Shown here piece after piece: positions 37,851-52,285 of a DNA stretch of 64,000 nucleotides (the stretch's first letter is position 1; every line of letters begins with the position of its first letter). The stretch is from Haliea sp. (lineage in GTDB: Bacteria > Pseudomonadota > Gammaproteobacteria > Pseudomonadales > Halieaceae). The notes under the pieces are model-generated. The model searched no databases and was not told where the DNA came from. It saw nothing but the letters and a program-made list of their open reading frames with translations. The stretch is taken from contig JBGTGB010000058.1 of NCBI GenBank assembly GCA_041746975.1, positions 3,855 through 67,854 of the forward strand, given 5' to 3'. A program made the translations under genes and the position numbers.

Positions 37851-38038
37851 CCGCAGCGCGATCGGCGGATCTGGCGTTACCGAGAACGGTGGCAGGTACC
37901 ATGGCGTCATCGACATGAATTCTTTCTTGCCAAAATCTGTAGTGGGTTTATAGTCGGCCGGTCAGTGGCGCAGGCGCGCATGGTTTTTGGGAGATGAGCC
38001 TGCAGTCATTATCGCTAATTATCATAAGGGAAACTTTT

Positions 38039-41035
38039 ATGAAGTTGATAACCGCATTGGCGGCACTGCCGCTGGGCGTGGCTCTCGTTGCCGGGTCTAC
38101 AGCCGTTGCCCAACCACCACAGGTGCCGGATGGCGCCGCGCTCGCAGCGGCCCTCCCGGCGGATCTCGTCAAGAAACAGGGAGTCTATATCGTGCGGATG
38201 GCGGACAGCCCCGTCGCCGCCTACCAGGGTGGTGTTCAAGGACTGCGCGCCACCAAGCCCGGCAAGAACCGTAAGTTGAATCCGCGGGATCCCGCCGTAG
38301 TGGCCTATGCAGACTACCTGGCAGCGCGCCAGAACGAAGCCATCGTCCGGGTCGGTGCCAAGAAGTTGTATAGCTACAAATATAGCTATAACGGCTTCGC
38401 AGCAGAATTGACCTCGGGCCAGGCTCAGGCGCTGCGCAATCTGCCGGGCGTGATTTCGGTAACACCGGACACCCTGTTGCAGCCCGATACCATCACAACC
38501 AGTGACATGTTGCAGCTGGAAGCGGGTCTCTGGAGCGAGCTCGGTGGGGTGGAAAATGCCGGAGAAGGTATCATCGTCGGGATTATCGACTCCGGAGTCT
38601 GGCCGGAAAGTGCCAGCTTTTCCGATCGCAGCGGTGTCAACAAAAATGGCAAGGGCGGCAAGCTCGATTACCGGCAGATTCCGGGCTGGCACGGCAAGTG
38701 CACCCCCGGTGACGAATTCCCCGCCTCGAAGTGCAACCAGAAGCTGATCGGTGCCCAGTGGTTCAATGCCGGTTTCGGCGGTGACGCGGGGGTACGTGCA
38801 CAGTTCCCCTATGAATACGCCTCGGCGCGGGATGCCGATGGCCATGGCACTCACACTGCCTCGACCGCGGCGGGCAATGCCAATGTGCCGGTATCGATCG
38901 CCGGCAACGATATGGGTTTCGCTAGCGGCATGGCGCCGCGGGCAAGGGTCTCTGTCTATAAGACCTGTTGGGGCCGAGGTGGCGAGGGTGGCTGCTTTTC
39001 CAGTGACAGCGTGGCTGCAATCGACCAGGCAGTAATCGACGGCGTGGATGTTATCAATTTCTCGATTAGTGGTTCCCGGACCAGTTTCCTGGACCAGGTT
39101 GAAGTAGCTTTTCTTTTCGCGGCCGACGCAGGTGTATTTGTCGCCGCCTCCGCTGGCAACTCCGGCCCGACGGCGAGCACGGTGGCCCACAACAGTCCCT
39201 GGCTGACCACGGTGGCGGCGGGTACTCATGACCGCGGCTTTGAGCCGGCATTTGTCACTACGGGCGAGGGCCAAAAATATCTGGGGATCACTTCCGGTTC
39301 CGGCACCAACTTGCTGCCGCTGGTTTTTGCCGGGGACGTAACCCTGGCGGGCGCAGATCCCACGGAGGGCGTATTGTGCTACCCGGGAACGCTGGAACCC
39401 GCCAAAGTTGAGGGCAGGATTGTCCTCTGTGATCGCGGCGATATTGCCCGGGTGGAGAAGAGCCGGGCAGTATCGCTGGCGGGGGGCTTGGGCATGGTTC
39501 TGGCCAATACCAGCGCCGGGCAATCGCTCAATGCTGATTTCCACGTAGTGCCTTCCATCCATGTCAATGATACAAATGGTGCGGCGTTACGCGCCTATAT
39601 CGCGTCTGCCCAGGATCCCTTGGCAAGTATTGATGCGAGCGTTCCCGCGATTGTCGAGGCCTCTGAGGTCGCAGGTTTCTCCTCCCGCGGCCCGGCGCTG
39701 GCCGGTAGCGGTGACATCCTCAAGCCCGACATCATGGCTCCGGGGGTGGATGTGATCGCCGCAGTTTCTCCGGCGGGCTACAACGGCAATACCTTTGACG
39801 CGTTGAGCGGCACCTCCATGTCCAGTCCGCACATGGCTGGCTTGGGCGCGCTGATGAAACAGCGATACCCGGACTGGTCCCCGGCGGCCATCAAGTCCGC
39901 CTTCATGACCACTGCGACCCAGAAAACCAACGACGGTAACTTCATTGCCGGCGGTCCTTTTGACTACGGTGCAGGTTTTGTAGTACCCAATCGGGCTGCC
40001 AACCCTGGCCTTGTGTACGATGCTGGTTTCACCGACTGGCTGGGATTCCTCTGTGGTACCGGCGATGTGAGCGCACCTTACTGTGCAAGCCTCGGCAAGG
40101 ACCCCAGTGACCTTAACTACCCGTCCATCGCGATAGGGTCCCTGGTCGGATCACAGACTGTGACCCGCACGGTAACCAACGTCGGCGAGGCTGGGACCTA
40201 CGAGGTAGAAGTTTGGGATCTCGATGGTATCGATGTCACTGTTGAGCCGGCGAGCCTGATTCTTGGCAAGGGCGGGCAGGGCACTTACACCGTGACCCTG
40301 AGAAACGTCACTGCTCCGCTCAAGGCGTACGCCAACGGCGCAATTGTCTGGAATGATGGCAACGGTAACAGTGTCCGCTCTCCCGTTGTGGCACGGCCAG
40401 TTGAGATTGATGTCCCGGCTGCTGTGAGTGGAGCAGGGATTTTTGGGAGCCTCTCTTTTGACGTCGCCTTCGGTTATACCGGAGAGTACTCAGTGCGGCC
40501 ATTGGGTCTGCAAGCGGCGACGGAGATCCCTGGCAATGTGGTGGACGATCCGGCTAACGACATCAATACCGCCCTCGGGTCCGGTGTCGGGGTAACCTTC
40601 CATAGTGTGAAGGTCGAGGCCGGCGCCGCGCTGCAGCGTATTGCCCTGTTCGATGATTACACCGATGGCAACGATGATCTGGACTTGTACGTGTACAACG
40701 GTGACACCGGTAGGTACGTGGGCGGGAGCTTTTCGGGCACCAGCGCCGAACAAGTGGATATTATCAATCCGACCGCATCAACCTACCTCGTCGTTGTCCA
40801 CGGCTGGGAAACCGATGGCCCGGATGCCAACTACACGCTATTCAGCTGGTCCGTCGCAACGGACGAGGGGAATATGACCGTGACCGCACCCGACTCGGCG
40901 GTGTCCGGCACGTCAGGCTCGGTCATCGTCGACTGGACAGACCTGGGTCAACTTTCCAAGTATCTCGGTGTACTCTCGCACCAGAATGCTGAAGGCGAGA
41001 TCGCTCGCACGGTGATTTCGGTGGATACCGACTAG
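38039..41035 (+). CDS. Secreted S8 subtilase (I9 prodomain, PA domain, Fn3-like and C-terminal beta domains)
   Basis: IIDSGVWPES (Asp), DGHGTHTASTAAG (His), GTSMSSPH (Ser), YSYKYSYNGFAA prodomain, KPDIMAPG, DLNYPSI. Confidence 0.95.
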   Translation: MKLITALAALPLGVALVAGSTAVAQPPQVPDGAALAAALPADLVKKQGVYIVRMADSPVAAYQGGVQGLRATKPGKNRKLNPRDPAVVAYADYLAARQNEAIVRVGAKKLYSYKYSYNGFAAELTSGQAQALRNLPGVISVTPDTLLQPDTITTSDMLQLEAGLWSELGGVENAGEGIIVGIIDSGVWPESASFSDRSGVNKNGKGGKLDYRQIPGWHGKCTPGDEFPASKCNQKLIGAQWFNAGFGGDAGVRAQFPYEYASARDADGHGTHTASTAAGNANVPVSIAGNDMGFASGMAPRARVSVYKTCWGRGGEGGCFSSDSVAAIDQAVIDGVDVINFSISGSRTSFLDQVEVAFLFAADAGVFVAASAGNSGPTASTVAHNSPWLTTVAAGTHDRGFEPAFVTTGEGQKYLGITSGSGTNLLPLVFAGDVTLAGADPTEGVLCYPGTLEPAKVEGRIVLCDRGDIARVEKSRAVSLAGGLGMVLANTSAGQSLNADFHVVPSIHVNDTNGAALRAYIASAQDPLASIDASVPAIVEASEVAGFSSRGPALAGSGDILKPDIMAPGVDVIAAVSPAGYNGNTFDALSGTSMSSPHMAGLGALMKQRYPDWSPAAIKSAFMTTATQKTNDGNFIAGGPFDYGAGFVVPNRAANPGLVYDAGFTDWLGFLCGTGDVSAPYCASLGKDPSDLNYPSIAIGSLVGSQTVTRTVTNVGEAGTYEVEVWDLDGIDVTVEPASLILGKGGQGTYTVTLRNVTAPLKAYANGAIVWNDGNGNSVRSPVVARPVEIDVPAAVSGAGIFGSLSFDVAFGYTGEYSVRPLGLQAATEIPGNVVDDPANDINTALGSGVGVTFHSVKVEAGAALQRIALFDDYTDGNDDLDLYVYNGDTGRYVGGSFSGTSAEQVDIINPTASTYLVVVHGWETDGPDANYTLFSWSVATDEGNMTVTAPDSAVSGTSGSVIVDWTDLGQLSKYLGVLSHQNAEGEIARTVISVDTD

Positions 41036-41054: not shown

Positions 41055-41082
41055 AAACCCGCGCCCTGCGCGGGTTTTTTTT
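41055..41082 (+). terminator. Intrinsic terminator
   Basis: AAACCCGCGC-CCT-GCGCGGGTTT followed by T-run. Confidence 0.85.
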
Positions 41083-41109: not shown

Positions 41110-41985
41110 ATGTTCGATCTCATCTCACAGCGCCTGTTCGCAACGCCGCCCGAGGAAACGCTCTATCACTATACAACCCTGAGCGGCCTGCTGGGTATCG
41201 TCGACAGCGCCGAGCTGCGCTGCAGTGATATCCGCTACATGAACGATTCCACTGAGCTACGCCACACGCTTGATCTGCTCGGGGAGCAGGTAACCCAGCG
41301 CATCGTAGCCGGGGTCGACAAGCCGGCCCTGCTGACTGCGTTTCTCGATTGGCTGACCCACCGGGTTGTGAGCGGGCCGATGTTGTTCTGTGCCTCTTTC
41401 CGTGGCAACGGCAATCTGCTGAGCCAGTGGCGCGGCTACAGCGTTCACGGCAAGGGGGTGAGTCTCGGATTCACGCCTGAACACTTACTGGATTGCGCGC
41501 GGCGTCAGCACTTCGAAGTCGGGCGTTGCGTGTATACGCCATCGCAACAGGAAAAAATGATCGATGAGATCATTGATGCGGTCGAGGCGTTGGCGGCAGA
41601 CAGCGATCAAAACCACGAGACGGCAGGTCAGAACCGCCGTTGGGTCCGTCGCTTTCAGACTATCGAGGGCGATTTGCTGCGCATCGCCGCAGTGCTCAAG
41701 CATCCCGCGTTTGAGGAAGAGCAGGAATGGCGTATTGTGTCGCCCATGATCGGCGATGTGACTGCTGCCAAAGCGCAGTTTCGCGAGGGCAATTCCATGT
41801 TGATTCCGTGGTATCCCCTCGATCTGCGCGACGAAGAGGGCCGGTTGGCCATCGAGCACGCTTTTCTCGGACCTACCGGCAATATCGACCTGTCAATGAA
41901 CTCACTGGCGCTGTATTTGCAGAGCCGCGGCGCATCGCCGCGCCGCGACATTACCTACTGCGATATCCCCTATCGCAAGCGCTGA
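41110..41985 (+). CDS. DUF2971 domain protein
   Basis: LYHYTT, YMNDSTE, LSQWRGYS, GVSLGF, LKHPAFEEEQEWRIV. Confidence 0.8.
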   Translation: MFDLISQRLFATPPEETLYHYTTLSGLLGIVDSAELRCSDIRYMNDSTELRHTLDLLGEQVTQRIVAGVDKPALLTAFLDWLTHRVVSGPMLFCASFRGNGNLLSQWRGYSVHGKGVSLGFTPEHLLDCARRQHFEVGRCVYTPSQQEKMIDEIIDAVEALAADSDQNHETAGQNRRWVRRFQTIEGDLLRIAAVLKHPAFEEEQEWRIVSPMIGDVTAAKAQFREGNSMLIPWYPLDLRDEEGRLAIEHAFLGPTGNIDLSMNSLALYLQSRGASPRRDITYCDIPYRKR

Positions 41986-41987
41986 GT

Positions 41988-42626
41988 CTACTCCGGTTGT
42001 GCGGGGGCCTGCTCGACGGGACGTTCCCGGTACCACTGGCTCATGTCGTCGTACAGTTCGCCTTTCAGCAGATACAAGGGAGACATGTGGTAGATCTTGA
42101 TATCGTGAAAAGGGTCAGTGATGATCTTGGTCGCCCAGACCAGGCCGGATTGCACCCCCTTGAGGAAAAACAGTTGCACGGTCCGAAAGACAACCGCGCC
42201 AACGCCGGTAAAGAACCAGAGGATCGCCGTGTTGTGCAGGAAGCCTTTGCTCACCTGATGGTCAGTGAGCAGTCCCATAAGATTCGGGCTCAGCCAGAGC
42301 AGGGCGGGCAGGGCTATCCAGACTGACAGTAGCACCACTTTGCGCTGCAGGTTGTAGCCCACCTTGACGCTTTCCTTGTACTCGTGGCTGGCCTGGTTCA
42401 CCTCGTCCCAGCTCTTGGGTTCAAAAAAGAAGTGGCCGATCTGGCGCAGGATCATGGCCAACAGCCATCCCACCATCACTGCCAGCACCGGGTCCACAAG
42501 GAGCAGCAGATAGCTGGCGATGAAGCAGCTGGCGCTGAGCAGGTGCAGCGACTGGTTGATCCGGTTGTGATGATAGTAGCGGTGGTCGTCCCAGCGCTGC
42601 TGGTGAAGTTCTTCAGCAAAGTTCAT
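41988..42626 (-). CDS. Mpo1/DUF962-like membrane protein
   Basis: YYHHNRINQSLH and RQIGHFFFEP His motifs around TM segments; ATGA overlap with psd. Confidence 0.6.
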   Translation of the reverse strand: MNFAEELHQQRWDDHRYYHHNRINQSLHLLSASCFIASYLLLLVDPVLAVMVGWLLAMILRQIGHFFFEPKSWDEVNQASHEYKESVKVGYNLQRKVVLLSVWIALPALLWLSPNLMGLLTDHQVSKGFLHNTAILWFFTGVGAVVFRTVQLFFLKGVQSGLVWATKIITDPFHDIKIYHMSPLYLLKGELYDDMSQWYRERPVEQAPAQPE

Positions 42627-43546
42627 GACAGTATCTCCGGTGGCGACGCAGTGTCTTGAGTGGGTGGAAGCTTTTCCCCGACCGCGTTTCGTTGCAGCAG
42701 GGCCTGTCCCATCTGCACGCGGCTGCCGGTCTCGGTGCCGGGGCAGAACTGGTGGTTACCGCGGGCAAACAGGATGATGGTGGAGCCATGTTGGAAATAG
42801 CCCAGTTCATCGCCCTTGCGCACGCTTACGCTACAGTTGATTCGCTCCGGCCCCTGGTAGCGCATGTCCAGGGCCGTTTCCAGGCAGTGCAGCTTGATGC
42901 TCGCAACGAGAATGGCAGCTACCGGTACCAGACATATAGCGCTGTCCGCATCCTCCGTATGCAGCGGCAGTACTGCCCGTTCATTCTTGCAGTAAAGCTT
43001 TTCAATGCGCTTCAAGGCGATCGGGTTGACGTTCCAGGTATCCCCGGAAATGTAGGTGACCTGCTCCAGTCTGCAGTCCACCGGTGCATGGAAACGATGG
43101 TACATGCTGGACGTGAGGCGCAGGGTAACGAAGACACCATCACGGTATTGTTCCTGCAGCTCCCGGTTTGGAATCAGATCCGCCAGTTCATAGGGAAAGC
43201 CTTTGGCCTGGAACAGGGTTGTGCCCATGATCCTGCCGCGGGCACCGACTATGGCATCGCAGGGACTGGTGACGACATCCGGCCTCATATCCACGGTTCT
43301 GGCGCCCGTCTTGAGTTCCCGCGTGAAGCAGGCCTGCAGGCTGTTGAAGCGCTGCTGTTTCGTCTCATCGAGGTTGAGATCATCAGCGAACAGACGCCAG
43401 AGTGCTATTGTGAGGCGGGTCAGCAGTGGGCTCTCGATACGGCTGAACCAGCCCAGGAACTGTGTTGCCAGCCTGCGGGGGATGCGGTTGGTCAGGAGGA
43501 AGTTGAGCTGCTCCTGCTGGCCCAATTGACGAATCAGCTGGTTCAT
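42623..43546 (-). CDS. psd: Phosphatidylserine decarboxylase family proenzyme
   Basis: FTRELK, SPCDA, YHRFHAP, NERAV, VAAILVASI, GDELGYFQHGST self-cleavage motif. Confidence 0.9.
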   Translation of the reverse strand: MNQLIRQLGQQEQLNFLLTNRIPRRLATQFLGWFSRIESPLLTRLTIALWRLFADDLNLDETKQQRFNSLQACFTRELKTGARTVDMRPDVVTSPCDAIVGARGRIMGTTLFQAKGFPYELADLIPNRELQEQYRDGVFVTLRLTSSMYHRFHAPVDCRLEQVTYISGDTWNVNPIALKRIEKLYCKNERAVLPLHTEDADSAICLVPVAAILVASIKLHCLETALDMRYQGPERINCSVSVRKGDELGYFQHGSTIILFARGNHQFCPGTETGSRVQMGQALLQRNAVGEKLPPTQDTASPPEILS

Positions 43547-43549
43547 GGC

Positions 43550-46261
43550 TCAGGCCACCGAGCGCTGCTTGAGTGGGCCGATGGGCGCCGGCAGGTCAAG
43601 ATTTCGCAGGTATTCATCCATGATTGCACTGCCCTCATAGTCGGCGGCGCGAGCACGGGCGCCGGCCCGCAGCGCCGCGTGTCGTCCCGGTTTCTGAAAG
43701 TGAGCCACTATGTGGGCGGCGAACTCCTCCTCGTCCGCAGCCAGATAACCGCTCACGCCAGGCTGGATAATGTCCGCGGGTCCTTTTGTGGCATAGGCGA
43801 CAGCCGGCATGCCGTGAGCAAAAGCTTCCAGTAAAACGTTGCCGAAGGTATCGAAACGCGAGGGGAATACGAACAGGTCCAGGCCCTGGTACAGCTGGGC
43901 GAGTCGGGCATGATCGGTCCAGCCAAGAAACACGGCGTCCGGCAGTTGTGCCCGCAAAGCATCTTCCTCCGGTCCTGAGCCCGCGATTACCAGGCGCAGG
44001 TCCGGCAGTGACTGCCGCGCCCGATCGAGAATTCGCGGTAGATCGCGCAGGCCCTTTTCCTGGCTGAGGCGGCAGGCGATGAACAGCACGGGCGTCTCCG
44101 CGTCAGCGTCGGCAAAAAGTTCCCGCTTTTCCACTGGCACGCTGTTCGCAATGGCCTCAGGTGCCTGATGCGCGGTAAGAAACACCTGCATAGGATCGAG
44201 CTCCATTTCGTGGCCGGTCAGCCAGCGTTTGTGCTCGGTGTTCAGCACAAAAACACCGTCGAACTGCTGGTATAGCAGGCGCAGCAGGCGCCGAATACGG
44301 TCGCGTTCGTGGGGCGTGGCGTCGGTCGTTGACTTGATGTATTCGAGCCAGTCGGTGTGCATGAAAAAGTAGCAGGGCACGTTGAACATGTACTTGAGAA
44401 ACAGCGCGACCAGTACCATGGGGCCCTCGGTCGAGCAGATCACGCGATCGTAACCACCTTCATAGAATGCGCGGGCAATCTGCAGCAGATCGGGAATCCT
44501 GAGCTGCTGGCCGCCGGTGTCGGGCAGGGTGTAGCTCCCCAGCGGTCTGAACACCAGCAGGTGATCCTCTGCCTCTCGCTCGTCGTCACAGACCAGCAGG
44601 TCGATGGGCAGATCTCTCTGCTGAATCTGGCGCAGCTTTCCGGTCAGGGAATTGGACACGCCGTTGCGGTCAAACAACGTATCGGTAAGATGCAGGGCGC
44701 GGCAATTGTGGCTGTTGCTACCCAGTTGTCGGGCAAAGTCGTTGAGAAACTGCCGATTCTGATAGAGTAAACGTGTACTTGCGACAGTGGCGCCAGCGAG
44801 AACCGCCGAGATCATCAGCGGAAAGGATATGCCGTCCAGCAAGTCCGTGACCTTGCGCCCACTGGTGTGGCGGTGTGGATTGTCACCACCGAATACCAGG
44901 GCGCTCAGCTGGGCAGGGATCTCGAAATTGCGCGTCAGCTCTTCGGTAGAAAACCGCAGGGCCTGATTGTCAGAGGTCAGCAGCCCGGATTTCTCAACCT
45001 TCGCCAGCATCAGGCGATTAAGATCGGTAAACAGCTCACCGATAGACTCGTTGACTGTCGCTACGAATTCTTCCGGCGTCCCTTGCTTGCTCGCCGCGAT
45101 CCGCTGCAGATGGTTGAGGCAGAAGCGGTATTTCTTCGCCACTTTCCACTTCAGCATGCGGTTGGGTTTCTTGCCCTGGAGGGCGTCGTGGACAAACTCG
45201 AAGAACTTGCGGGCGTGCTTCTTCTTCTGTAGTTCGAGCATGGCGTTGCTGATTGCGAGGCAGGCGAGTTTGTCGCTGGTTTCACCGCGGTGCAGGAGAA
45301 TACGCAGCAGGCCTGGATCCTGAATGCGGGTGGCTACCTGAGCAAAGTAATCAAGCAGTGCGATATTGAGCTTCTGGTTCTCGCCTACGTGGCCAAATGG
45401 CGCGATGCGCCCTTCACGGATGGCTTCCAAGGCCAGCGCTGAGGGCTTTTCCTGGAGCAGGCGTTGCTGCAGGTCAGGTACCTGCAGAAAAGAGCCGCAC
45501 TGTCCGGCAAATATTCCCATGTGATCGTCCGAGCCACCGGTAAGAACCTTCGGACTCTCCGCATTCACACCGAAATCGGCGGGATTCAACCGGTGCTTGC
45601 GTCCCCAGGCCTGCATCTTTTCTGGAGTGATGCTGCGGGCCCAGTTGAGTGTCAGCGTCGACTGCCAGAGGTCGCGCTGCCCATTCAGGACCTCGACTCG
45701 CTGGAACAACAGCGCCAGCAGTTCAAAGACGGTGGGATCGACCTTGCCGGTGTGGGCATACAAAAACAGGGGGTGCGGCAGGATAACCGGAAGGTCATGC
45801 TCGGCAGCGTAGCGGAGAAACTGATAAACATCGCGCCGATGGCGGTTGAGAATTTCTTCCTGGGCTGGACTGAAACCATAAGTCAGAACATGCACGAACA
45901 GGTCACGATCGGGAAAGTGACAGGTGAATTCGGCACCTACCAGCACATCCTCCCCCTTGTCCAACAGCTGCCAGCAGGACCGCGCATTGTTGTGGTTGGT
46001 CACCGTAATAACATCGCTGCCGTGCTGGCGCAGGCATTTCACCAGTTTCTTGCTTTCCAGCCAGGTCTCGGGCAGGCGCAGTATCCGCCCCCATAGTTCA
46101 TCCGGTTGGTCGCTGTTCAGGTCGTGGCAGTGCAGATCGATCCGGAGTCGATCCTCCGCCGCAAAGCGCGTCTCCTCCTGCTCCAGGAAGCTATTGAAGC
46201 CGTTCGCGAGCGAAGGGCGGAAGTCTGCCTGGCGGGCGCGATCAAGCTGGGTAACAGTCAT
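43550..46261 (-). CDS. PHP-domain phosphoesterase fused to GT4 glycosyltransferase
   Basis: N-terminal DLHCH, TNHN, GAEF, HVL, PHP, GGSDDH; C-terminal TDTLFDRNGVS, STEGP, HTDW, RLSQEKGL, FPSRFDTFGNVLLEA; ATGA overlap with upstream gene fixes the start at 46261. Confidence 0.85.
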   Translation of the reverse strand: MTVTQLDRARQADFRPSLANGFNSFLEQEETRFAAEDRLRIDLHCHDLNSDQPDELWGRILRLPETWLESKKLVKCLRQHGSDVITVTNHNNARSCWQLLDKGEDVLVGAEFTCHFPDRDLFVHVLTYGFSPAQEEILNRHRRDVYQFLRYAAEHDLPVILPHPLFLYAHTGKVDPTVFELLALLFQRVEVLNGQRDLWQSTLTLNWARSITPEKMQAWGRKHRLNPADFGVNAESPKVLTGGSDDHMGIFAGQCGSFLQVPDLQQRLLQEKPSALALEAIREGRIAPFGHVGENQKLNIALLDYFAQVATRIQDPGLLRILLHRGETSDKLACLAISNAMLELQKKKHARKFFEFVHDALQGKKPNRMLKWKVAKKYRFCLNHLQRIAASKQGTPEEFVATVNESIGELFTDLNRLMLAKVEKSGLLTSDNQALRFSTEELTRNFEIPAQLSALVFGGDNPHRHTSGRKVTDLLDGISFPLMISAVLAGATVASTRLLYQNRQFLNDFARQLGSNSHNCRALHLTDTLFDRNGVSNSLTGKLRQIQQRDLPIDLLVCDDEREAEDHLLVFRPLGSYTLPDTGGQQLRIPDLLQIARAFYEGGYDRVICSTEGPMVLVALFLKYMFNVPCYFFMHTDWLEYIKSTTDATPHERDRIRRLLRLLYQQFDGVFVLNTEHKRWLTGHEMELDPMQVFLTAHQAPEAIANSVPVEKRELFADADAETPVLFIACRLSQEKGLRDLPRILDRARQSLPDLRLVIAGSGPEEDALRAQLPDAVFLGWTDHARLAQLYQGLDLFVFPSRFDTFGNVLLEAFAHGMPAVAYATKGPADIIQPGVSGYLAADEEEFAAHIVAHFQKPGRHAALRAGARARAADYEGSAIMDEYLRNLDLPAPIGPLKQRSVA

Positions 46262-47979
46262 GGTGTTCTCCCGGTGATGGCGTCGATAGTGTCGGTCGCT
46301 ATGGGTGAGTGACCGGCGACTGGCTGCAGGCCAAATCTGGCTCGCAACATTTCTGTGACCAGTTGGCGTTGTATCTCGCGGTGGGTGAGCTGCTCTGACT
46401 GCCACCACCAGCCGTCCATGGCCATTTGCCGGGCCGCATCGAGAAAGCGTTGCACGACTGCGGAGAAGTCATCGTCGGAGTAGTTGAGGCTCATGATCAG
46501 GCGGCCACTGCCGACCCAGGAGAGCTCCAGACCCTGATCGCGCAGGTAGAACTGGAACATCCAGTTGTAGCGGGAGGGCACCGTGTAGAGGACGGTCCAG
46601 ATACTGTGCATATTGGCGACTCGCACAGGGAGTTGCGCCCTGGTAAGCTGATCGTTCAGCTGCCTCGCGCGCGCATTCCAGAGTGTATCCGCGTCCCGGT
46701 ACAGGGCCTGGTAGTAAGGTTCTTCCACACGCTGCAGAAAAACGTTCATTGCGGCCATGACATAGGGATGGGAATTGAAAGTGCCGCGTGCAAAGGCGAT
46801 GTTTGCCGGCTGTTCTTCCTTGAAGCGCTTCATCAACTGACGGCGACCGCACAGTACACCCACGGGCAGGCCACCGCCCAGGGTTTTGCCGTAGGTGACC
46901 ATATCGGCCTGGATGCCGAAGTACTCCTGGGCGCCGCGATGGGCAAGCCGAAAGCCGGTGAAGACCTCATCGAAGATCAGGACGATACCGCGGCGGGTAC
47001 AGACCTCGCGTATCAGCTGCAGCCAGTGGGTGTAGGTGCTGCGGTCAAAATGGGCGCTGCGGCCGCTGCTCACCAGAGTGGCATCGCCGGCTGCATCCGC
47101 GTTGGGGTGCAGGGCCTGCAGCGGGTTGATCAGCACGCAGGCGATGTTCTTGCGGGTCTCCAGCACCTTGAGCGTACGCTCGCTCAAGTCGCACAATGTG
47201 TACACGTCGCTGGTCTTGCGCTGATTGCCGACACCCGGCTGCACACCGTCCCACCAGCCATGGTAGGCGCCGCAAAGCCGGACCAGGTGTGAACGGCCGG
47301 TGTGATAGCGGGCAAGGCGTACGGCCTGCATTACTGCCTCCGTGCCGGACATATGGAAGGACACTTCATCCAGTCCCGATAGGGCCTGCAAGCGTTCTAC
47401 ATTGTCCCGGATTACCGGATGGTAGGGGCCGAGCACTGGTCCCAGCGGACCCGCTATGCGCGTGGCTTCCGCAAGGCAGTCCTTGTAGAAATCGTAACCG
47501 AAGACGTTAACGCCGTAGGAGCCCGACAGATCGTAGCGCCAGTTGCCGTCAATATCCCGGAGGCGAACTCCGTCGCTGCAGTCAACGACGGAGCCTTGGC
47601 GCAGCGCTTTCGCCAGACCATTCCGATAGGGAAAGGGCACCCGGTAGGCACTGGTGAAGCTCACATCGGAGATACTGCTGTCGAGCGTTGCGCCGAACTC
47701 CAGGCTCTTGGGGGAGCGCGCCTGCAGCTGACGGATTAACCTGCCAAAACCGGCTCGACGCTGCTCAGCAACCTCAGAAGGCGCTCCGTCACTGTTGAAG
47801 TAGCGTTCAGGACCAAAGCTGTAATAGGGAACCAGACGGGAGATCCGGCGTGACCATTTGGCGTGGCCACGCAGGGAGGGGTGTTTTGCCAGAGACAGAC
47901 GCAGCCTGTTCCAGAGGAGGTAAATGAATACCAGCATGGCTGGTACCAGCAGGAGATAAGTTTCAATACCGTTGAGCAT
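46258..47979 (-). CDS. Class III aminotransferase (glutamate-1-semialdehyde aminomutase-like) with N-terminal membrane anchor
   Basis: SGTEAVMQAVRLAR, GAYHGW, LIFDEVFTGFR, TYGKTLGGGLPVG (PLP Lys), GTFNSHP; hydrophobic YLLLVPAMLVFIYLLW. Confidence 0.85.
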   Translation of the reverse strand: MLNGIETYLLLVPAMLVFIYLLWNRLRLSLAKHPSLRGHAKWSRRISRLVPYYSFGPERYFNSDGAPSEVAEQRRAGFGRLIRQLQARSPKSLEFGATLDSSISDVSFTSAYRVPFPYRNGLAKALRQGSVVDCSDGVRLRDIDGNWRYDLSGSYGVNVFGYDFYKDCLAEATRIAGPLGPVLGPYHPVIRDNVERLQALSGLDEVSFHMSGTEAVMQAVRLARYHTGRSHLVRLCGAYHGWWDGVQPGVGNQRKTSDVYTLCDLSERTLKVLETRKNIACVLINPLQALHPNADAAGDATLVSSGRSAHFDRSTYTHWLQLIREVCTRRGIVLIFDEVFTGFRLAHRGAQEYFGIQADMVTYGKTLGGGLPVGVLCGRRQLMKRFKEEQPANIAFARGTFNSHPYVMAAMNVFLQRVEEPYYQALYRDADTLWNARARQLNDQLTRAQLPVRVANMHSIWTVLYTVPSRYNWMFQFYLRDQGLELSWVGSGRLIMSLNYSDDDFSAVVQRFLDAARQMAMDGWWWQSEQLTHREIQRQLVTEMLRARFGLQPVAGHSPIATDTIDAITGRTP

Positions 47980-48049
47980 GGGCTTCCCGCGCCGTGGCAA
48001 CCACGCATGACGCAGCTACCGTTGGTTTGGTCCACAATGCACCGGTTTG

Positions 48050-48089
48050 ATTGCAGTGTTCTTACAGTTTCGGGAAGCTTTTGTTGCAG
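48050..48089 (-). promoter_or_regulatory. Pho-box-like 11-bp periodic array (OmpR/PhoB-family site)
   Basis: Minus strand CTGCAAC-AAAA-GCTTCCC-GAAA-CTGTAAG-AACA-CTGCAAT, about 70 bp upstream of the operon start. Confidence 0.55.
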
Positions 48090-48123
48090 TGAGAGGGCCC
48101 GCGTCGGACGCAGGCCGCCGCGA

Positions 48124-49553: not shown

Positions 49554-50042
49554 ATGAAGTTGACGATAAACGGCAAGCAGACAGAAATTGACGCAGAGCC
49601 CGACATGCCCCTGCTGTGGGCATTGCGTGACCTCCTTGGCCTGCGCGGCACCAAGTACGGCTGCGGCAAGGGACTTTGCGGCGCCTGTACGGTGCACCTG
49701 GATGGCCAGCCGCGGCGCAGCTGCCAGCTGACGGTGGCGGACGCTGCGAAGGGCAAGGTAACGACCATAGAGGGATTGTCAGCCGATGGCTCCCATCCAC
49801 TGCAGCAAGCCTGGCGCGAGTTCAATGTCCCCCAATGTGGCTACTGCCAGTCCGGCCAGTTAATGAGCGCCAGCGCGCTGCTGGCGAATAACTCCTCGCC
49901 ATCGGACGAGGAAATCAACAGTGCGATGGCGGGCAACCTGTGTCGTTGCGGGACTTATCCGCGAATCCGCACAGCGATCAAAAGTACCTTCACGGACGCC
50001 GCTGCCATTGCCCAGGCAGTAACAAGGGAGGACACGGTATGA
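49554..50042 (+). CDS. iorA: (2Fe-2S) subunit of isoquinoline 1-oxidoreductase-type molybdoenzyme
   Basis: [34 protein letters not shown]; family-level name. Confidence 0.9.
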
Positions 50043-52285
50043 GTGCTCTCAGCGTAGTTTCCAGACGCCGTTTCCTGCAGCTCACCGGTCTTGCGGCCAG
50101 CGGTCTGGTACTGGGTGCGGTTGCTCCTCGCAATCTGGCTCTGGCCGGTATTCTCGATGAGGCCCAGGGGTCACAGCTCAACCTGTTTGTCAGCGTGGCC
50201 ACCGATGGCACTGTGGAGATCATTGCCCATCGCTCCGAGATGGGCACCGGCATTCGCACCAGCCTGCCGCAGGTGGTAGCGGATGAAATGGAGGCAGACT
50301 GGCAGCGGGTCAAGGTAATCCAGGCCCATGCAGACGCCCGCTATGGCAGCCAGAACACCGACGGCTCCCGCTCCGTGCGCGACTTCTACCAGGTCATGCG
50401 GCAGATGGGAGCCGCGGCACGGACCCTGCTTGAGCAAGCTGCGGCCGCTGTTTGGGAAGTGCCGGTCGAGGAGTGCACAGCGCGCGAGCACGCGGTACAC
50501 CACAGCGGCGGCAAGAGCCTCGGCTTCGGTGAGCTGGCGGCGAAAGCCGCAGACCAACCCCTGCCGGAATTGGAGACCCTGCGCCTTAAGGATCCGGCGG
50601 ATTTCCGCTATATCGGCAAGGATGTGCCGATTGTCGACCTGCAGGACATGACCACCGGCAATACCACCTACGGCATTGATGTGCACGTCCCCGGAATGCT
50701 CTACGCCAGCATCGAGCGCACTCCCTGGCTGCAGGGCCGTATCGCTTCCTACGATTCTTCCGCCGCACTGGAAGTGAGCGGTGTGCTGGACGTGGTTGAG
50801 CTTAAAGCGGTTGATGGAGCGCCGGGCTTCAACCCCATCGAGGGCGTTGCCGTAATTGCGACCAATAACTACAGCGCGCTCAAGGGGCGGGCGGCGCTGA
50901 AGGTGCGCTGGCGCAAGAGCGACCATAGCAGCCACAACGCGGACGCCTACCTCGATCAGCTGGTGGCACGGGTTGAGGGTGGCGCGGGTGAAGTGCGGCG
51001 TCAGCGAGGCGATGTAGACAGCGCCCTGGCAAACGCAGCGACGCTCCTTGAGGCGACCTATCGGACCCCCTACCTGGCTCATGCCTCCATGGAGCCGCCG
51101 GTGGCGACCGCGCGGGTTACAGATGAGGGCTGTGAAATCTGGGCCTGCACCCAGACGCCGCAGGCTACCCAGCAGGCCGTTGCGGATACGCTTGAGCTGG
51201 ACCCCTCTGCCGTTACGGTACACGTAACGCTGTTGGGCGGTGGCTTCGGACGCAAGTCCAAGCCGGACTTCTCGGTAGAAGCGGCCAGGCTCGCTTCCCA
51301 CGTTGGCAAACCGGTGCAGGTGGTCTGGAGTCGCGAGGATGATATCCGTCACGATTACTTTCACTCCTGCAGCGCCCAGCACTTTAAAGCTGCGCTGGAT
51401 GAAGCCGGCACGGTGACTGCGTGGCTGGGACGGGAAGCTTCGCCTCCGATTGCTGCCACCTTCGATACCAGCGTGCGGAGGAATGGCGCTGGCGGCTTGT
51501 CCCAGAGCTTTGCCAGCGTGCCCTTCGCGGTACCCAACCTGCGCATGGAAAGTCACGAGGCTCCCGCCCATGTGCGTATCGGCTGGCTGCGCGCTGTTTA
51601 TAATGTTCCTTTTGCGTTCGGGGTTGGCAGCTTTGTCGACGAGCTGGCACATGCTGCCGGTCGCGACCCGGCCGAGTTCTGGCTGCAGCTTATCGGCGAG
51701 GACCGCCTGTTGGATTTCAGTGCCGAGGGTTTCGAGTACAGCAACTATGGGCGCTCCCTTGCGGAGTATCCCTTTGCCACGGCGCGTACCAAGGGCGTGA
51801 TCCGTGAGCTGGTGGCCTCCATCCCCTGGGGTGAAGAGTTACCGGAAGGGCAGGGTTGGGGGCTCTCGGTGGCCAACAGTTTCCTCAGCGATGTCGCAGT
51901 CGCCAGCAAGGTGGAAGTGAGAGACGGTCGCTTGCGGGTCCTGGAACTGCACGGCGTCATCGATGCCGGCCGTGTGATCAACCCGGATCGCGTCCACGCG
52001 CAGATGGAGGGTGGCATGATTTTTGGCCTGAGCCTGGCCCTGAACGGCGAGATCACCTTCGACGGCGGTGAGGCGCAGCAGTCCAACTTCCACGACTATC
52101 CCATCGCGCGCATGGACCAGGTCCCCGGTGTGATCCGCAGCCACATCATAAAGAGTGACGCGGCCCCAACCGGGGTTGGAGAGCCCCCCACGCCGCCCAC
52201 CGCGCCCGCCATCGCCAACGCGGTCTTTGCCGCTACCGGCAAGCGCATTCGGGAGCTGCCCCTGGGTAAGCACTTCAATGTGTGA
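50039..52285 (+). CDS. iorB: Molybdopterin-binding subunit, IorB/xanthine dehydrogenase family, Tat signal
   Basis: SRRRFLQ Tat motif, [40 protein letters not shown]; family-level name. Confidence 0.9.

What the first reader, a model, noticed from the sequence alone, without database searches (positions are those of the whole stretch)
41988..47979. Four-gene operon that looks like an undescribed membrane-lipid synthesis or remodelling system
Seen: aminotransferase III, PHP-GT4 fusion, PS-decarboxylase and Mpo1-like genes are translationally coupled (ATGA overlaps at 46258-46261 and 42623-42626, 3-bp gap at 43547-43549). All four have lipid or membrane connections: a TM anchor, a DAG-type glycosyltransferase motif set, a lipid decarboxylase and a hydroxy-fatty-acid dioxygenase-like protein. 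A Pho-box-like array lies upstream. Known: marine bacteria replace phospholipids under P limitation using PlcP with Agt, BtaAB or Ols enzymes, none of which has this composition. Inference: it makes a new amino- or glyco-lipid, or recycles phospholipid head groups into a P-free lipid.
Basis: partly seen in the sequence, partly recalled or inferred. Interest (0 to 1): 0.82.

Follow-up and report, generated by a model that had tools for sequence, protein, structure and literature searches.

The report
Uncharacterised phosphate-starvation membrane-lipid operon
Four tightly linked genes in a marine Haliea-like bacterium form a widely conserved unit that carries phosphate-starvation control sites and most likely swaps phosphorus-containing membrane lipids for sugar lipids, using a set of enzymes that I did not find described in the papers I could search.

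Summary
Four minus-strand genes (41988-47979) are translationally coupled: a membrane-anchored class-III aminotransferase (AT3), a 903-aa PHP phosphoesterase-GT4 glycosyltransferase fusion (PHPGT), a phosphatidylserine decarboxylase (PSD) paralogue, and a borderline Mpo1-like membrane protein (MPO).

In 80 genomes carrying the fusion, 70 have it followed by PSD. AT3 precedes it in all 67 where the contig extends upstream, always in the same order. No other gene is co-conserved.

PhoB-type Pho boxes are enriched about ten-fold upstream (p = 4e-12). TGTCAT is the top enriched 6-mer. Stand-alone and alternative-partner copies of the fusion often carry Pho boxes too.

Elsewhere the fusion sits beside btaA/btaB-like, olsB/olsA-like, UgtP-like, MMPL and PhoD genes.

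Best reading: a Pho-regulon lipid-remodelling module. The PHP domain plays the PlcP role by releasing diacylglycerol. The GT4 domain plays the Agt role by making a glycolipid. PSD, AT3 and MPO probably process PS/PE head groups.

The product and the order of steps are inferred, not shown. No description turned up in ten literature searches. I rate it a new variant of a known kind, worth lipidomics.

The parts
48050..48089 (-). Pho-box-like array. Half-sites lie in 11-bp phase: CTGCAAC (48083-48089), CTGTAAG (48061-48067) and CTGCAAT (48050-48056). The array ends about 70 nt upstream of the AT3 start codon.
   Evidence: Sequence. The best 18-mer scores 10/14. The block is 100% conserved in three Haliea genomes. 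Orthologous upstream regions are enriched for Pho boxes (27/56 vs 38/437, p = 4e-12). TGTCAT and CTGTCA are the top enriched 6-mers.
48096..48116 (-). GC-rich hairpin just after the metY stop codon. It is the probable end of the upstream transcription unit and so the operon boundary.
   Evidence: Sequence. The stem is kept, with a compensatory change, in the Haliea alignment. There is no T-run, so the terminator function is inferred.
46258..47979 (-). AT3: a 573-aa class-III (GSA-aminomutase / MycA-AMT-like) PLP enzyme. It has an N-terminal TM anchor (residues 4-26, nt 47902-47970) and a conserved C-terminal WWW motif.
   Evidence: Pfam PF00202, 106 bits. It is below every NCBIfam equivalog cut-off. 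The best PDB hit is the mycosubtilin synthase aminotransferase domain 6kfm, E 6.7e-51. K365 (TYGK), D337 and W524-526 are invariant in 62 orthologues.
45377..46159 (-). PHP phosphoesterase domain of the fusion protein (about residues 35-295).
   Evidence: AF2 models (pLDDT 82.6 and 79.8). Foldseek hits to RNase AM/TrpH, BAD_1165, Cv1693 and the PolC/DnaE PHP domains. H44, H90, E111, H124, H163, D245 and H247 are invariant and H46 is conserved in at least 90% of sequences.
44702..45376 (-). Helical linker region of the fusion (residues 296-520). It contains a moderately hydrophobic helix at 475-495, a possible membrane-association element.
   Evidence: AF2 secondary structure. No significant structural match. 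Hydropathy. It always accompanies the PHP domain in ~900-aa family members.
43550..44701 (-). GT4 (GT-B, retaining-type) glycosyltransferase domain of the fusion (residues 521-903 plus the stop codon).
   Evidence: Pfam Glyco_trans_1_4, Glycos_transf_1 and Glyco_transf_4. Foldseek hits to BshA, PimB', PimA, SPS and MshA. R731, K736, D804 and E812 are invariant.
42623..43546 (-). PSD: a 307-aa pyruvoyl-dependent phosphatidylserine decarboxylase paralogue. The self-cleavage site is G254-S255-T256.
   Evidence: PF02666, 183 bits; TIGR00163, 153.7 bits against a cut-off of 111.75. E. coli Psd 6l06, E 1e-25, 30% identity. D97, H150, H153 and G254-S255-T256 are invariant in 67 orthologues.
41988..42626 (-). 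MPO: a 212-aa integral membrane protein, distantly Mpo1/DUF962-like, with a conserved His cluster.
   Evidence: PF06127, 23.6 bits against a cut-off of 24. All 34 homologues tested match the same N-terminal region. H15, H19, H20, H28, H65, E69, H81 and H174 are invariant. Four hydrophobic segments. At least 8000 homologous clusters, all unnamed.

Best explanation
This is a self-contained four-gene operon of the phosphate-starvation (PhoB) regulon that remodels membrane lipids to save phosphorus. The core is the 903-aa fusion protein. Its PHP metal-phosphoesterase domain fills the role that PlcP plays in known systems. It releases diacylglycerol and phosphate, or a phospho-head group, from a phospholipid, most simply from phosphatidic acid. 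The fused GT4 domain fills the role of Agt and glycosylates that diacylglycerol to a phosphorus-free glycolipid. The other three membrane-bound enzymes feed aminophospholipids into this route. PSD converts phosphatidylserine to phosphatidylethanolamine, whose primary amine is the kind of substrate class-III (omega) transaminases use. AT3 removes that amine, which saves the nitrogen. The Mpo1-like iron oxygenase helps to cleave the remaining two-carbon stub, leaving phosphatidic acid for the PHP domain.

Shown: gene content, coupling, co-conservation, intact catalytic residues in every enzyme, Pho boxes, and lipid-gene neighbourhoods.

Inferred: all substrates, the order of steps and the product.
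For: The genes are translationally coupled.

Order and strand are conserved. PSD follows the fusion in 70 of 80 loci. AT3 precedes it in all 67 where the contig extends upstream. The carriers span Gammaproteobacteria, Zetaproteobacteria and MAGs assigned to other phyla. The flanks are not conserved and no fifth co-conserved family exists.

Pho boxes are enriched upstream of AT3: 27/56 vs 38/437 control intergenic regions, p = 4e-12, and p = 4.5e-10 after de-replication. TGTCAT and CTGTCA are the top 6-mers in an unbiased enrichment. Stand-alone fusions (Luminiphilus 12/14; a Kordiimonadaceae locus with three phased sites) and the alternative-partner operons also carry Pho boxes.

The PHP fold and metal ligands are conserved, as are the GT4 fold and catalytic residues.

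The PHP+helical domain is essentially always fused to GT4.

Homologues of the fusion occupy the 'PlcP slot' beside a BtaA-family gene (DUF3419, 296 bits) with a methyltransferase, GT4 and PGM (DUF3419 = betaine lipid synthase, PMC10685587). Others sit beside OlsB/OlsA-like genes, PhoD and a metallophosphoesterase, beside a UgtP/diglucosyl-DAG-synthase-like gene, and beside MMPL. PlcP neighbourhoods have the same pattern (PMC4796936).

PSD has all catalytic residues. The phosphate-contacting Tyr137 of E. coli Psd is replaced by an invariant Arg, so an anionic head group is still expected (PMC7952604).

AT3 is membrane-anchored, and its closest solved relative aminates a lipid-borne carbonyl.
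Against: There is no expression or biochemical data; no RNA runs exist for this organism.

The window's own Pho box is weak (10/14).

Known PHP enzymes act on nucleotides, histidinol phosphate or phosphotyrosine. None is known to act on lipids.

AT3 is closest to GSA aminomutases and the MycA AMT domain, not to known amine:2-oxoacid omega-transaminases or phospho-lyases. Its direction (deaminating or aminating) is therefore open.

The MPO step has no precedent: Mpo1 acts on 2-hydroxy fatty acids.

An extra PSD is not obviously needed for head-group removal.

Some homologues of the fusion lie next to separate DAG glycosyltransferases. The fused GT4 might therefore add a second sugar or use another acceptor.
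Confidence: 0.55

Rival explanations
1. The operon builds a new nitrogen-containing phosphorus-free lipid, such as an amino-glycolipid. PHP-GT4 makes a glycosyl-diacylglycerol. The Mpo1-like oxygenase oxidises a position on the sugar or lipid. AT3 aminates the resulting carbonyl. The AT3-PSD-MPO trio would then be the functional equivalent of BtaAB or OlsBA, providing a zwitterionic or cationic substitute for PE.
For: The trio occupies the same neighbourhood slot as btaAB-like and olsBA-like genes next to other copies of the fusion. AT3's relatives include the lipid-aminating MycA AMT domain and sugar C-6' aminotransferases such as GenB and NeoN. MPO has a conserved His cluster that fits an iron oxygenase.
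Against: It gives PSD no role. A pyruvoyl decarboxylase needs a free alpha-amino acid, and PSD keeps an anion-binding residue at the phosphate site. No sugar oxidase or dehydrogenase of a known type is present.
Confidence: 0.22
2. The operon modifies another envelope glycoconjugate or makes a soluble glycoside rather than a diacylglycerol glycolipid. One possibility is dephosphorylation and glycosylation of lipid A or LPS core. Another is a GT-plus-phosphatase pair like sucrose-phosphate synthase/phosphatase or MshA.
For: The closest structural matches of the GT4 domain include BshA, MshA and sucrose-phosphate synthase, which use soluble or phosphorylated acceptors. GT plus phosphatase is a classic pairing for phosphorylated acceptors (own knowledge). 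JGI annotates homologues as 'involved in cell wall biosynthesis'.
Against: Three of the four proteins have membrane or lipid features. The neighbours of homologues are membrane-lipid genes, not LPS or solute genes. PSD is active only on acylated substrates (PMC7952604).
Confidence: 0.12
3. The linkage has no shared function. The psd is simply the housekeeping copy and the neighbours are unrelated.
For: I could not scan whole genomes for a second psd. PSD passes the general TIGR00163 cut-off.
Against: Order-conserved linkage of the same four families occurs in 70 of 80 loci with unrelated flanks. Identity to E. coli Psd is only 30%, against 53-71% to operon copies in other classes and phyla. 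Some Marinobacter and Luminiphilus carry the fusion without an adjacent psd, so those genera must hold their housekeeping psd elsewhere (inference).
Confidence: 0.04

Closest known systems
PlcP-Agt lipid renovation system of marine and soil bacteria (PMC4796936)
   Same: It is controlled by a Pho box. It pairs a metal phosphoesterase that frees diacylglycerol with a GT4 glycosyltransferase that makes MGDG/GADG. Its neighbourhoods also hold btaAB or ols genes.
   Different: Here the phosphoesterase has a PHP fold, not the calcineurin-like metallophosphoesterase fold. It is fused to the GT4 through a ~225-aa helical region. Three further enzymes (AT3, PSD, MPO) are co-conserved with it. None of the four proteins has a Metallophos domain.
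BtaAB (DGTS) and OlsBA (ornithine lipid) pathways
   Same: They belong to the same regulon and have the same purpose: phosphorus-free lipids made under phosphate limitation. They are found next to homologues of the fusion.
   Different: The enzyme families are unrelated. This operon has no SAM-dependent transferase and no N-acyltransferase.
E. coli phosphatidylserine decarboxylase Psd (PDB 6l06/7cnw)
   Same: Same family. The Asp-His-Ser self-cleavage triad, the catalytic His and the N-terminal membrane-binding helices are all present.
   Different: Identity is 30%. The phosphate contacts Tyr137 and Ser166 are replaced by an invariant Arg143 and Asn172. It is an accessory copy encoded in a Pho-box operon.
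Aminotransferase (AMT) domain of mycosubtilin synthase MycA, and glutamate-1-semialdehyde aminomutases
   Same: Class-III PLP fold over residues 131-523 (E 6.7e-51). The catalytic Lys and Asp are present.
   Different: It is a stand-alone enzyme with a TM anchor and a ~130-aa N-terminal extension. No carrier protein partner is encoded. It falls far below the HemL cut-off.
Yeast Mpo1 (Fe2+-dependent 2-hydroxy fatty acid dioxygenase; PMC10398889)
   Same: The N-terminal His-rich segment and two TM helices match the Pfam Mpo1-like profile.
   Different: Only about 60 residues match and the score sits at the threshold. It has two extra TM segments and a conserved C-terminal tail. Its substrate is unknown.
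TrpH/YciV (RNase AM) and Cv1693-type PHP phosphoesterases
   Same: These are the best structural matches of the N-terminal domain, with the same metal-ligand pattern.
   Different: They act on nucleotides or RNA 5' ends and are ~290-aa soluble proteins. Here the domain is followed by a helical region and a GT4.
Plant PAH1/PAH2 plus MGD/DGD route under phosphate starvation (own knowledge)
   Same: The logic is the same as the route proposed here: a phosphatidate phosphatase feeds diacylglycerol to glycolipid synthases when phosphate is scarce.
   Different: The protein families are unrelated and the enzymes are separate polypeptides.

Membership tests
PHP (polymerase and histidinol phosphatase) superfamily | PHP barrel fold | tested here: met
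   Foldseek of the N-terminal model: 7ug9 E 4.5e-5, then 9etk, 3e0f, 2yb1 and the PolC/DnaE PHP domains.
PHP (polymerase and histidinol phosphatase) superfamily | Metal-ligand motifs HxH, H, E, H, H, DxH | tested here: met
   H44, H90, E111, H124, H163, D245 and H247 are invariant in 52 sequences. H46 is conserved in at least 90%.
PHP (polymerase and histidinol phosphatase) superfamily | Pfam PF02811 above its gathering score | tested here: not met
   No PHP hit even at E <= 10. A second-tier relative, P0325, hits PHP at 22.7 bits (below the 26.4 cut-off) and PHP_C at 23.1 bits (above the 21.3 cut-off).
PHP (polymerase and histidinol phosphatase) superfamily | Phosphoesterase activity, and on which substrate | not testable with these tools
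   Needs an enzyme assay.
Glycosyltransferase family 4 (GT-B, retaining) | Pfam GT4 domains above their gathering scores, and a GT-B fold | tested here: met
   PF13692 95.7 bits, PF00534 87.5 bits, PF13439 40 bits. Foldseek hits to BshA, PimB' and PimA at about E 3e-13.
Glycosyltransferase family 4 (GT-B, retaining) | Nucleotide-sugar binding Arg/Lys and the (E/D)x7E motif | tested here: met
   R731, K736, D804 and E812 are invariant. The mapping onto the motif rests on my own knowledge of GT4.
Glycosyltransferase family 4 (GT-B, retaining) | Diacylglycerol as acceptor (Agt/Mgs-like) | not testable with these tools
   Only weak family-level hits: GlcN_PG_synth 47.8 bits and Mgs 27.5 bits, both far below their cut-offs.
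Phosphatidylserine decarboxylase (PF02666 / TIGR00163) | Profile scores above the curated cut-offs | tested here: met
   PF02666 183.5 bits against 22. TIGR00163 153.7 bits against 111.75.
Phosphatidylserine decarboxylase (PF02666 / TIGR00163) | G-S-T self-cleavage site and the Asp/His/His residues | tested here: met
   D97, H150, H153 and G254-S255-T256 are invariant in 67 orthologues and align with E. coli D90, H144, H147 and S254.
Phosphatidylserine decarboxylase (PF02666 / TIGR00163) | Phosphate-contacting residues of E. coli Psd (Tyr137, Ser166, Val167 backbone) | tested here: inconclusive
   Y137 is replaced by R143 and S166 by N172; V167 corresponds to V173 (PMC7952604). An Arg can still bind a phosphate.
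Phosphatidylserine decarboxylase (PF02666 / TIGR00163) | Being the organism's housekeeping psd | not tested
   No whole-genome scan was available. Indirect evidence argues against it.
Aminotransferase class III (PF00202) | Profile above its gathering score, with the catalytic Lys and the PLP-binding Asp | tested here: met
   106 bits against 30.5. K365 and D337 are invariant.
Glutamate-1-semialdehyde 2,1-aminomutase (HemL) | Equivalog score | tested here: not met
   TIGR00713 scores 169.6 bits against a cut-off of 527.3. It is not HemL.
Mpo1-like / DUF962 (PF06127) | Profile above its gathering score | tested here: inconclusive
   23.6 bits against 24 for the window protein. All 34 homologues match at E <= 0.01, but only over profile positions 6-67 of 95.
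Mpo1-like / DUF962 (PF06127) | Fe2+-dependent dioxygenase activity | not testable with these tools
   The conserved His/Glu cluster is compatible with it. The Mpo1 catalytic-residue papers were not held in the library.
Pho regulon (PhoB-controlled genes) | Pho box (two CTGTCAT-like repeats with 11-bp spacing) in the promoter region | tested here: met
   The window scores 10/14 within a phased array. Enrichment across orthologues gives p = 4e-12. The unbiased top 6-mers are TGTCAT and CTGTCA.
Pho regulon (PhoB-controlled genes) | Induction at low phosphate and PhoB binding | not testable with these tools
   No RNA data exist for this organism.
PlcP-Agt system | PlcP, a calcineurin-like metallophosphoesterase | tested here: not met
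   None of the four proteins has a Metallophos domain. The resemblance is one of role, not of family.

The most novel reading that the evidence does not exclude
This would be a previously unknown pathway that dismantles aminophospholipid head groups without a phospholipase C. PSD turns PS into PE. A membrane-anchored omega-type transaminase removes the PE amine and so salvages nitrogen. An Mpo1-like iron oxygenase cleaves the two-carbon remnant to leave phosphatidic acid. A lipid-active PHP phosphatase releases phosphate, and its fused GT4 caps the diacylglycerol with a sugar. It would be the first lipid substrate for a PHP enzyme and the first bacterial function for the Mpo1/DUF962 family.
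Probability: 0.15. Interest if true: 0.88.

Novelty: new variant of a known kind. Interest (0 to 1): 0.72.

Why it matters
Replacing phospholipids under phosphate scarcity is a major adaptation of marine and soil bacteria and affects ocean phosphorus budgets. The known toolkits are PlcP-Agt, BtaAB and OlsBA.

This operon would add a widespread, compositionally different route. Relatives of the fusion occur in at least 373 species-representative genomes. The fourth gene has at least 8000 protein clusters in metagenomes.

It offers four testable firsts:
- a lipid-active PHP phosphoesterase;
- a single-polypeptide 'PlcP+Agt' enzyme;
- a Pho-regulated accessory PSD;
- a bacterial role for the Mpo1/DUF962 family.

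The genes could also serve as metagenomic markers of phosphorus stress.

Tried and rejected
1. Sequence searches for the PHP domain found nothing (Pfam at E <= 10; PDB phmmer). Only structure prediction and motifs showed it.

2. Foldseek with the full-length model was swamped by GT4 hits. I had to re-model the N-terminal 520 residues.

3. The search for expression data failed. The window is found only in metagenome DNA runs. The one run that matched Halioglobus japonicus gave sparse, low-depth contigs that say nothing about expression.

4. Ten literature searches found no paper describing this gene set. The lipocone paper mentions PHP only in another context.

5. The idea that AT3 is an ethanolamine-phosphate phospho-lyase-like enzyme has no specific support. 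No phospho-lyase appears among its 60 best PDB relatives.

6. No intrinsic terminators or internal promoters were found above chance in the operon.

7. The recurrent alternative partners of the fusion have no Pfam, NCBIfam or PDB match. These are a 770-810-aa family and a 573-581-aa family.

8. The Mpo1 catalytic-residue papers were not held.

Full report
OBSERVATION. The window comes from a Haliea-like member of the Halieaceae (marine Gammaproteobacteria). The best protein match is Haliea sp. E1-2-M8 at 91% identity. The junctions are an ATGA overlap at 46258-46261, a 3-bp gap at 43547-43549 and an ATGA overlap at 42623-42626. Each start codon has a plausible upstream Shine-Dalgarno-like stretch, read directly from the sequence. 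The downstream neighbour (DUF2971, plus strand) converges on the last gene with a 2-bp gap. The upstream neighbour is metY (O-acetylhomoserine sulfhydrylase). It is separated from the operon by 144 bp that contain a GC-rich hairpin and then a conserved block.

THE FOUR PROTEINS.

(1) AT3 is 573 aa and is a class-III PLP enzyme (PF00202, 106 bits).
- It reaches no NCBIfam equivalog cut-off (HemL 170 bits against 527).
- Its best solved relative is the aminotransferase domain of mycosubtilin synthase MycA (E 6.7e-51 over residues 131-523). From my own knowledge, that domain aminates a beta-keto fatty acyl chain. GSA aminomutases come next.
- K365 (TYGK) and D337 are invariant in 62 orthologues, as is a C-terminal WWW motif.
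- Residues 4-26 form a TM anchor.

(2) The fusion protein (PHPGT) is 903 aa.
- Pfam sees only GT4 domains, at residues 533-874.
- The AlphaFold model is good (pLDDT 82.6, pTM 0.83). Its C-terminal half matches GT4 enzymes such as BshA, PimB', PimA, sucrose-phosphate synthase and MshA.
- A separate model of residues 1-520 (pLDDT 79.8) matches PHP phosphoesterases: the RNase AM/TrpH PHP domain 7ug9 (E 4.5e-5), 9etk, BAD_1165, Cv1693, and the PHP domains of PolC and DnaE.
- The PHP metal ligands H44, H90, E111, H124, H163, D245 and H247 are invariant in 52 homologues, and H46 is conserved in at least 90%.
- Residues 296-520 are long helices with no significant structural match. They include a moderately hydrophobic helix at 475-495.

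(3) PSD is 307 aa and passes both PF02666 and TIGR00163.
- It aligns with E. coli Psd at 30% identity.
- The self-cleavage and catalytic residues are invariant (D97, H150, H153, G254-S255-T256).
- Of the residues that contact the PE phosphate in E. coli Psd (Tyr137, Ser166, the Val167 backbone; PMC7952604), Tyr137 is replaced by an invariant Arg143 and Ser166 by Asn172. The site is altered, but an anionic head group is still expected.

(4) MPO is 212 aa.
- It scores 23.6 bits on Pfam Mpo1-like, 0.4 bits under the cut-off. All 34 homologues tested match the same N-terminal 60 residues.
- It has four hydrophobic segments and an invariant set H15, H19, H20, H28, H65, E69, H81 and H174.
- It is the most conserved of the four proteins and has at least 8000 homologous clusters, all unnamed.

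CO-CONSERVATION. A scan of one genome per species found at least 373 relatives of the fusion, and I kept 80 loci.
- In 70 of the 80, PSD follows the fusion; in 69 of them MPO follows PSD.
- AT3 precedes the fusion in all 67 of those where the contig reaches upstream.
- Order and strand are always the same.
- Carriers include Halieaceae, Colwellia, Paraglaciecola, Psychrosphaera, Marinobacter, Nevskia, Methylococcales, Cycloclasticus, Aliikangiella and Zetaproteobacteria.
- They also include MAGs labelled Binatia, Margulisiibacteriota and Crocinitomicaceae. Those MAG labels may be binning errors.
- Clustering all flanking ORFs shows the four families in 57-77 loci, while the next most frequent family occurs in only 8. 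The unit is therefore self-contained.
- The operon PSD is 53-71% identical across these lineages but only 30% identical to E. coli Psd. That pattern fits a mobile accessory paralogue rather than a vertically inherited housekeeping gene.

REGULATION.
- In the window, three CTGTCAT-like half-sites lie in 11-bp phase (48083-48089, 48061-48067, 48050-48056). The best 18-mer scores only 10/14.
- The whole block is identical in three Haliea genomes, whereas nearby intergenic bases vary.
- Across orthologous loci, 27 of 56 regions upstream of AT3 carry a same-strand box of at least 10/14. The figure is 38 of 437 for control intergenic upstream regions (odds ratio about 10, p = 4e-12). After de-replication the test still gives p = 4.5e-10.
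- Most boxes lie 40-150 nt before the start codon.
- An enrichment test with no prior motif ranks TGTCAT and CTGTCA first among 3423 6-mers.
- Pho boxes also precede stand-alone copies of the fusion (Luminiphilus 12/14; a Kordiimonadaceae locus with three phased sites) and three of the four alternative-partner operons (11-12/14).

WIDER FAMILY.
- The PHP+helical region has only 789 relatives among 1.84 billion representative proteins. Full-length matches are almost all 880-920 aa, so the region comes fused to GT4.
- A second tier of ~800-aa proteins is also PHP+GT4.
- Where the AT3-PSD-MPO trio is absent, the fusion is alone, or coupled to an unknown 770-810-aa protein, or next to an unknown 573-581-aa protein.
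- Its other neighbours are telling. They include a DUF3419 protein (296 bits) with a small methyltransferase, a second GT4 and a phosphoglucomutase; DUF3419 is the betaine-lipid synthase BtaA/BTA1 family (PMC10685587).
- Further neighbours are OlsB/OlsA-like genes, PhoD and a metallophosphoesterase; an OlsF-like bifunctional acyltransferase; a UgtP/diglucosyl-DAG-synthase-like gene; and an MMPL transporter.
- This is the same pattern reported for plcP neighbourhoods (PMC4796936).

MECHANISM.
Shown:
- one coupled, conserved, Pho-box-bearing unit;
- catalytic residues intact in every enzyme;
- a membrane anchor or lipid-binding features in AT3, PSD and MPO;
- lipid-remodelling neighbours around homologues of the fusion.

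Inferred with moderate confidence: the PHP domain takes the PlcP role and supplies diacylglycerol, and the fused GT4 takes the Agt role.

Inferred with low confidence:
- PSD funnels PS into PE.
- PE's primary amine suits a class-III (omega-type) transaminase better than the alpha-amino acid of PS does.
- AT3 removes that amine.
- MPO cleaves the two-carbon remnant oxidatively.
- That leaves phosphatidic acid for the PHP domain.

This scheme uses every gene. It also explains why the fusion can work alone, acting on newly made phosphatidic acid as plant PAH plus MGD/DGD do (own knowledge). No step has been tested.

RIVALS.
- Amino-glycolipid. The trio could instead decorate the glycolipid to give an amino-glycolipid, equivalent to BtaAB or OlsBA. 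This fits AT3's relatives but leaves PSD without a role.
- Non-lipid product. A non-lipid glycoconjugate or a soluble product fits some of the GT4 structural matches, but not the membrane features or the gene contexts.
- Housekeeping psd. A housekeeping psd with chance neighbours is contradicted by the synteny.

COMPARISON AND NOVELTY. The system works like PlcP-Agt but is not a member of it, because no calcineurin-like phosphoesterase is present. The PHP-GT4 fusion, a Pho-linked accessory PSD, a membrane-anchored MycA/GSAM-like aminotransferase and a bacterial Mpo1-like protein together are a composition I could not find described. The ten searches covered a library that lacks most subscription journals. 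I rate it a new variant of a known kind.

LIMITS. There is no expression or biochemical evidence. The source is a metagenome, and the DNA runs holding it are labelled as hot-spring metagenome. The presence of a second psd was not checked. The window's own Pho box is weak.

Noticed in passing
L070:4161-6599, L071:1507-3942, L072:5525-7951, L079:5626-8025, L085:5686-8004, L088:5687-8008: An unknown 770-810-aa protein family (38-49% identical among members) sits immediately upstream of the PHP-GT4 gene, and often overlaps it, in genomes that lack the AT3-PSD-MPO trio. It has no Pfam, NCBIfam or PDB sequence match. Three of the four loci tested have strong Pho boxes just upstream. It may be a functional alternative to the trio.
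   Followed up: partly
L083:10683-12404 (minus strand), L086:3013-4758: A second unknown partner family (573-581 aa, 36% identical) lies next to distant PHP-GT4 homologues. No family or structure match.
   Followed up: partly
L083:6007-7652 (minus strand) and L083:12502-15252: A distant PHP-GT4 homologue (43% identity) is transcribed divergently from a DUF3419 (BtaA-family) gene and a small methyltransferase. A second GT4 and a phosphoglucomutase lie downstream. It looks like a compact island for phosphorus-free lipids.
   Followed up: partly
P0316, P0325, P0333, P0340; L081, L090: A shorter (~800 aa) family of PHP+GT4 fusions exists with about 30-35% identity in the PHP domain. The two contexts I looked at showed no lipid genes, so its function may differ.
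   Followed up: partly
window 48020-48035 (minus strand) and orthologous upstream regions: Besides Pho-box words, the 7-mers AACCAAC and CTGCAAC are strongly enriched upstream of AT3 (12/51 vs 6-7/437). In the window, AAACCAAC lies between the Pho array and the start codon. It may be lineage-specific conservation or a second regulatory or leader element.
   Followed up: no
window 41110-41985 (+): A DUF2971 gene converges on the operon with only 2 bp between the two stop codons. This arrangement is kept only in close Haliea relatives.
   Followed up: partly
window 37994-41035 (+), terminator-like hairpin 41055-41077: A large secreted subtilisin-like (S8) protease, judged from its GHGTHTAS and SGTSMSSPH motifs, is followed by the only clear intrinsic terminator in the area.
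   Followed up: no
window 49554-52285 (+): A [2Fe-2S] small subunit and a molybdopterin large subunit, typical of an aldehyde oxidase / isoquinoline oxidoreductase-type enzyme, lie divergent from metY. This is read from sequence motifs only.
   Followed up: no
whole window: The only public runs holding this sequence are labelled 'hot springs metagenome', although the closest relatives are marine Haliea. The habitat label or the organism's range deserves a look.
   Followed up: no
L026 and L054 (Zetaproteobacteria): In L026 no MPO gene was detected after PSD, although about 1.2 kb of contig remains. In L054 MPO lies about 490 bp beyond PSD instead of the usual 20-100 bp. This may reflect an insertion or local rearrangement.
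   Followed up: no
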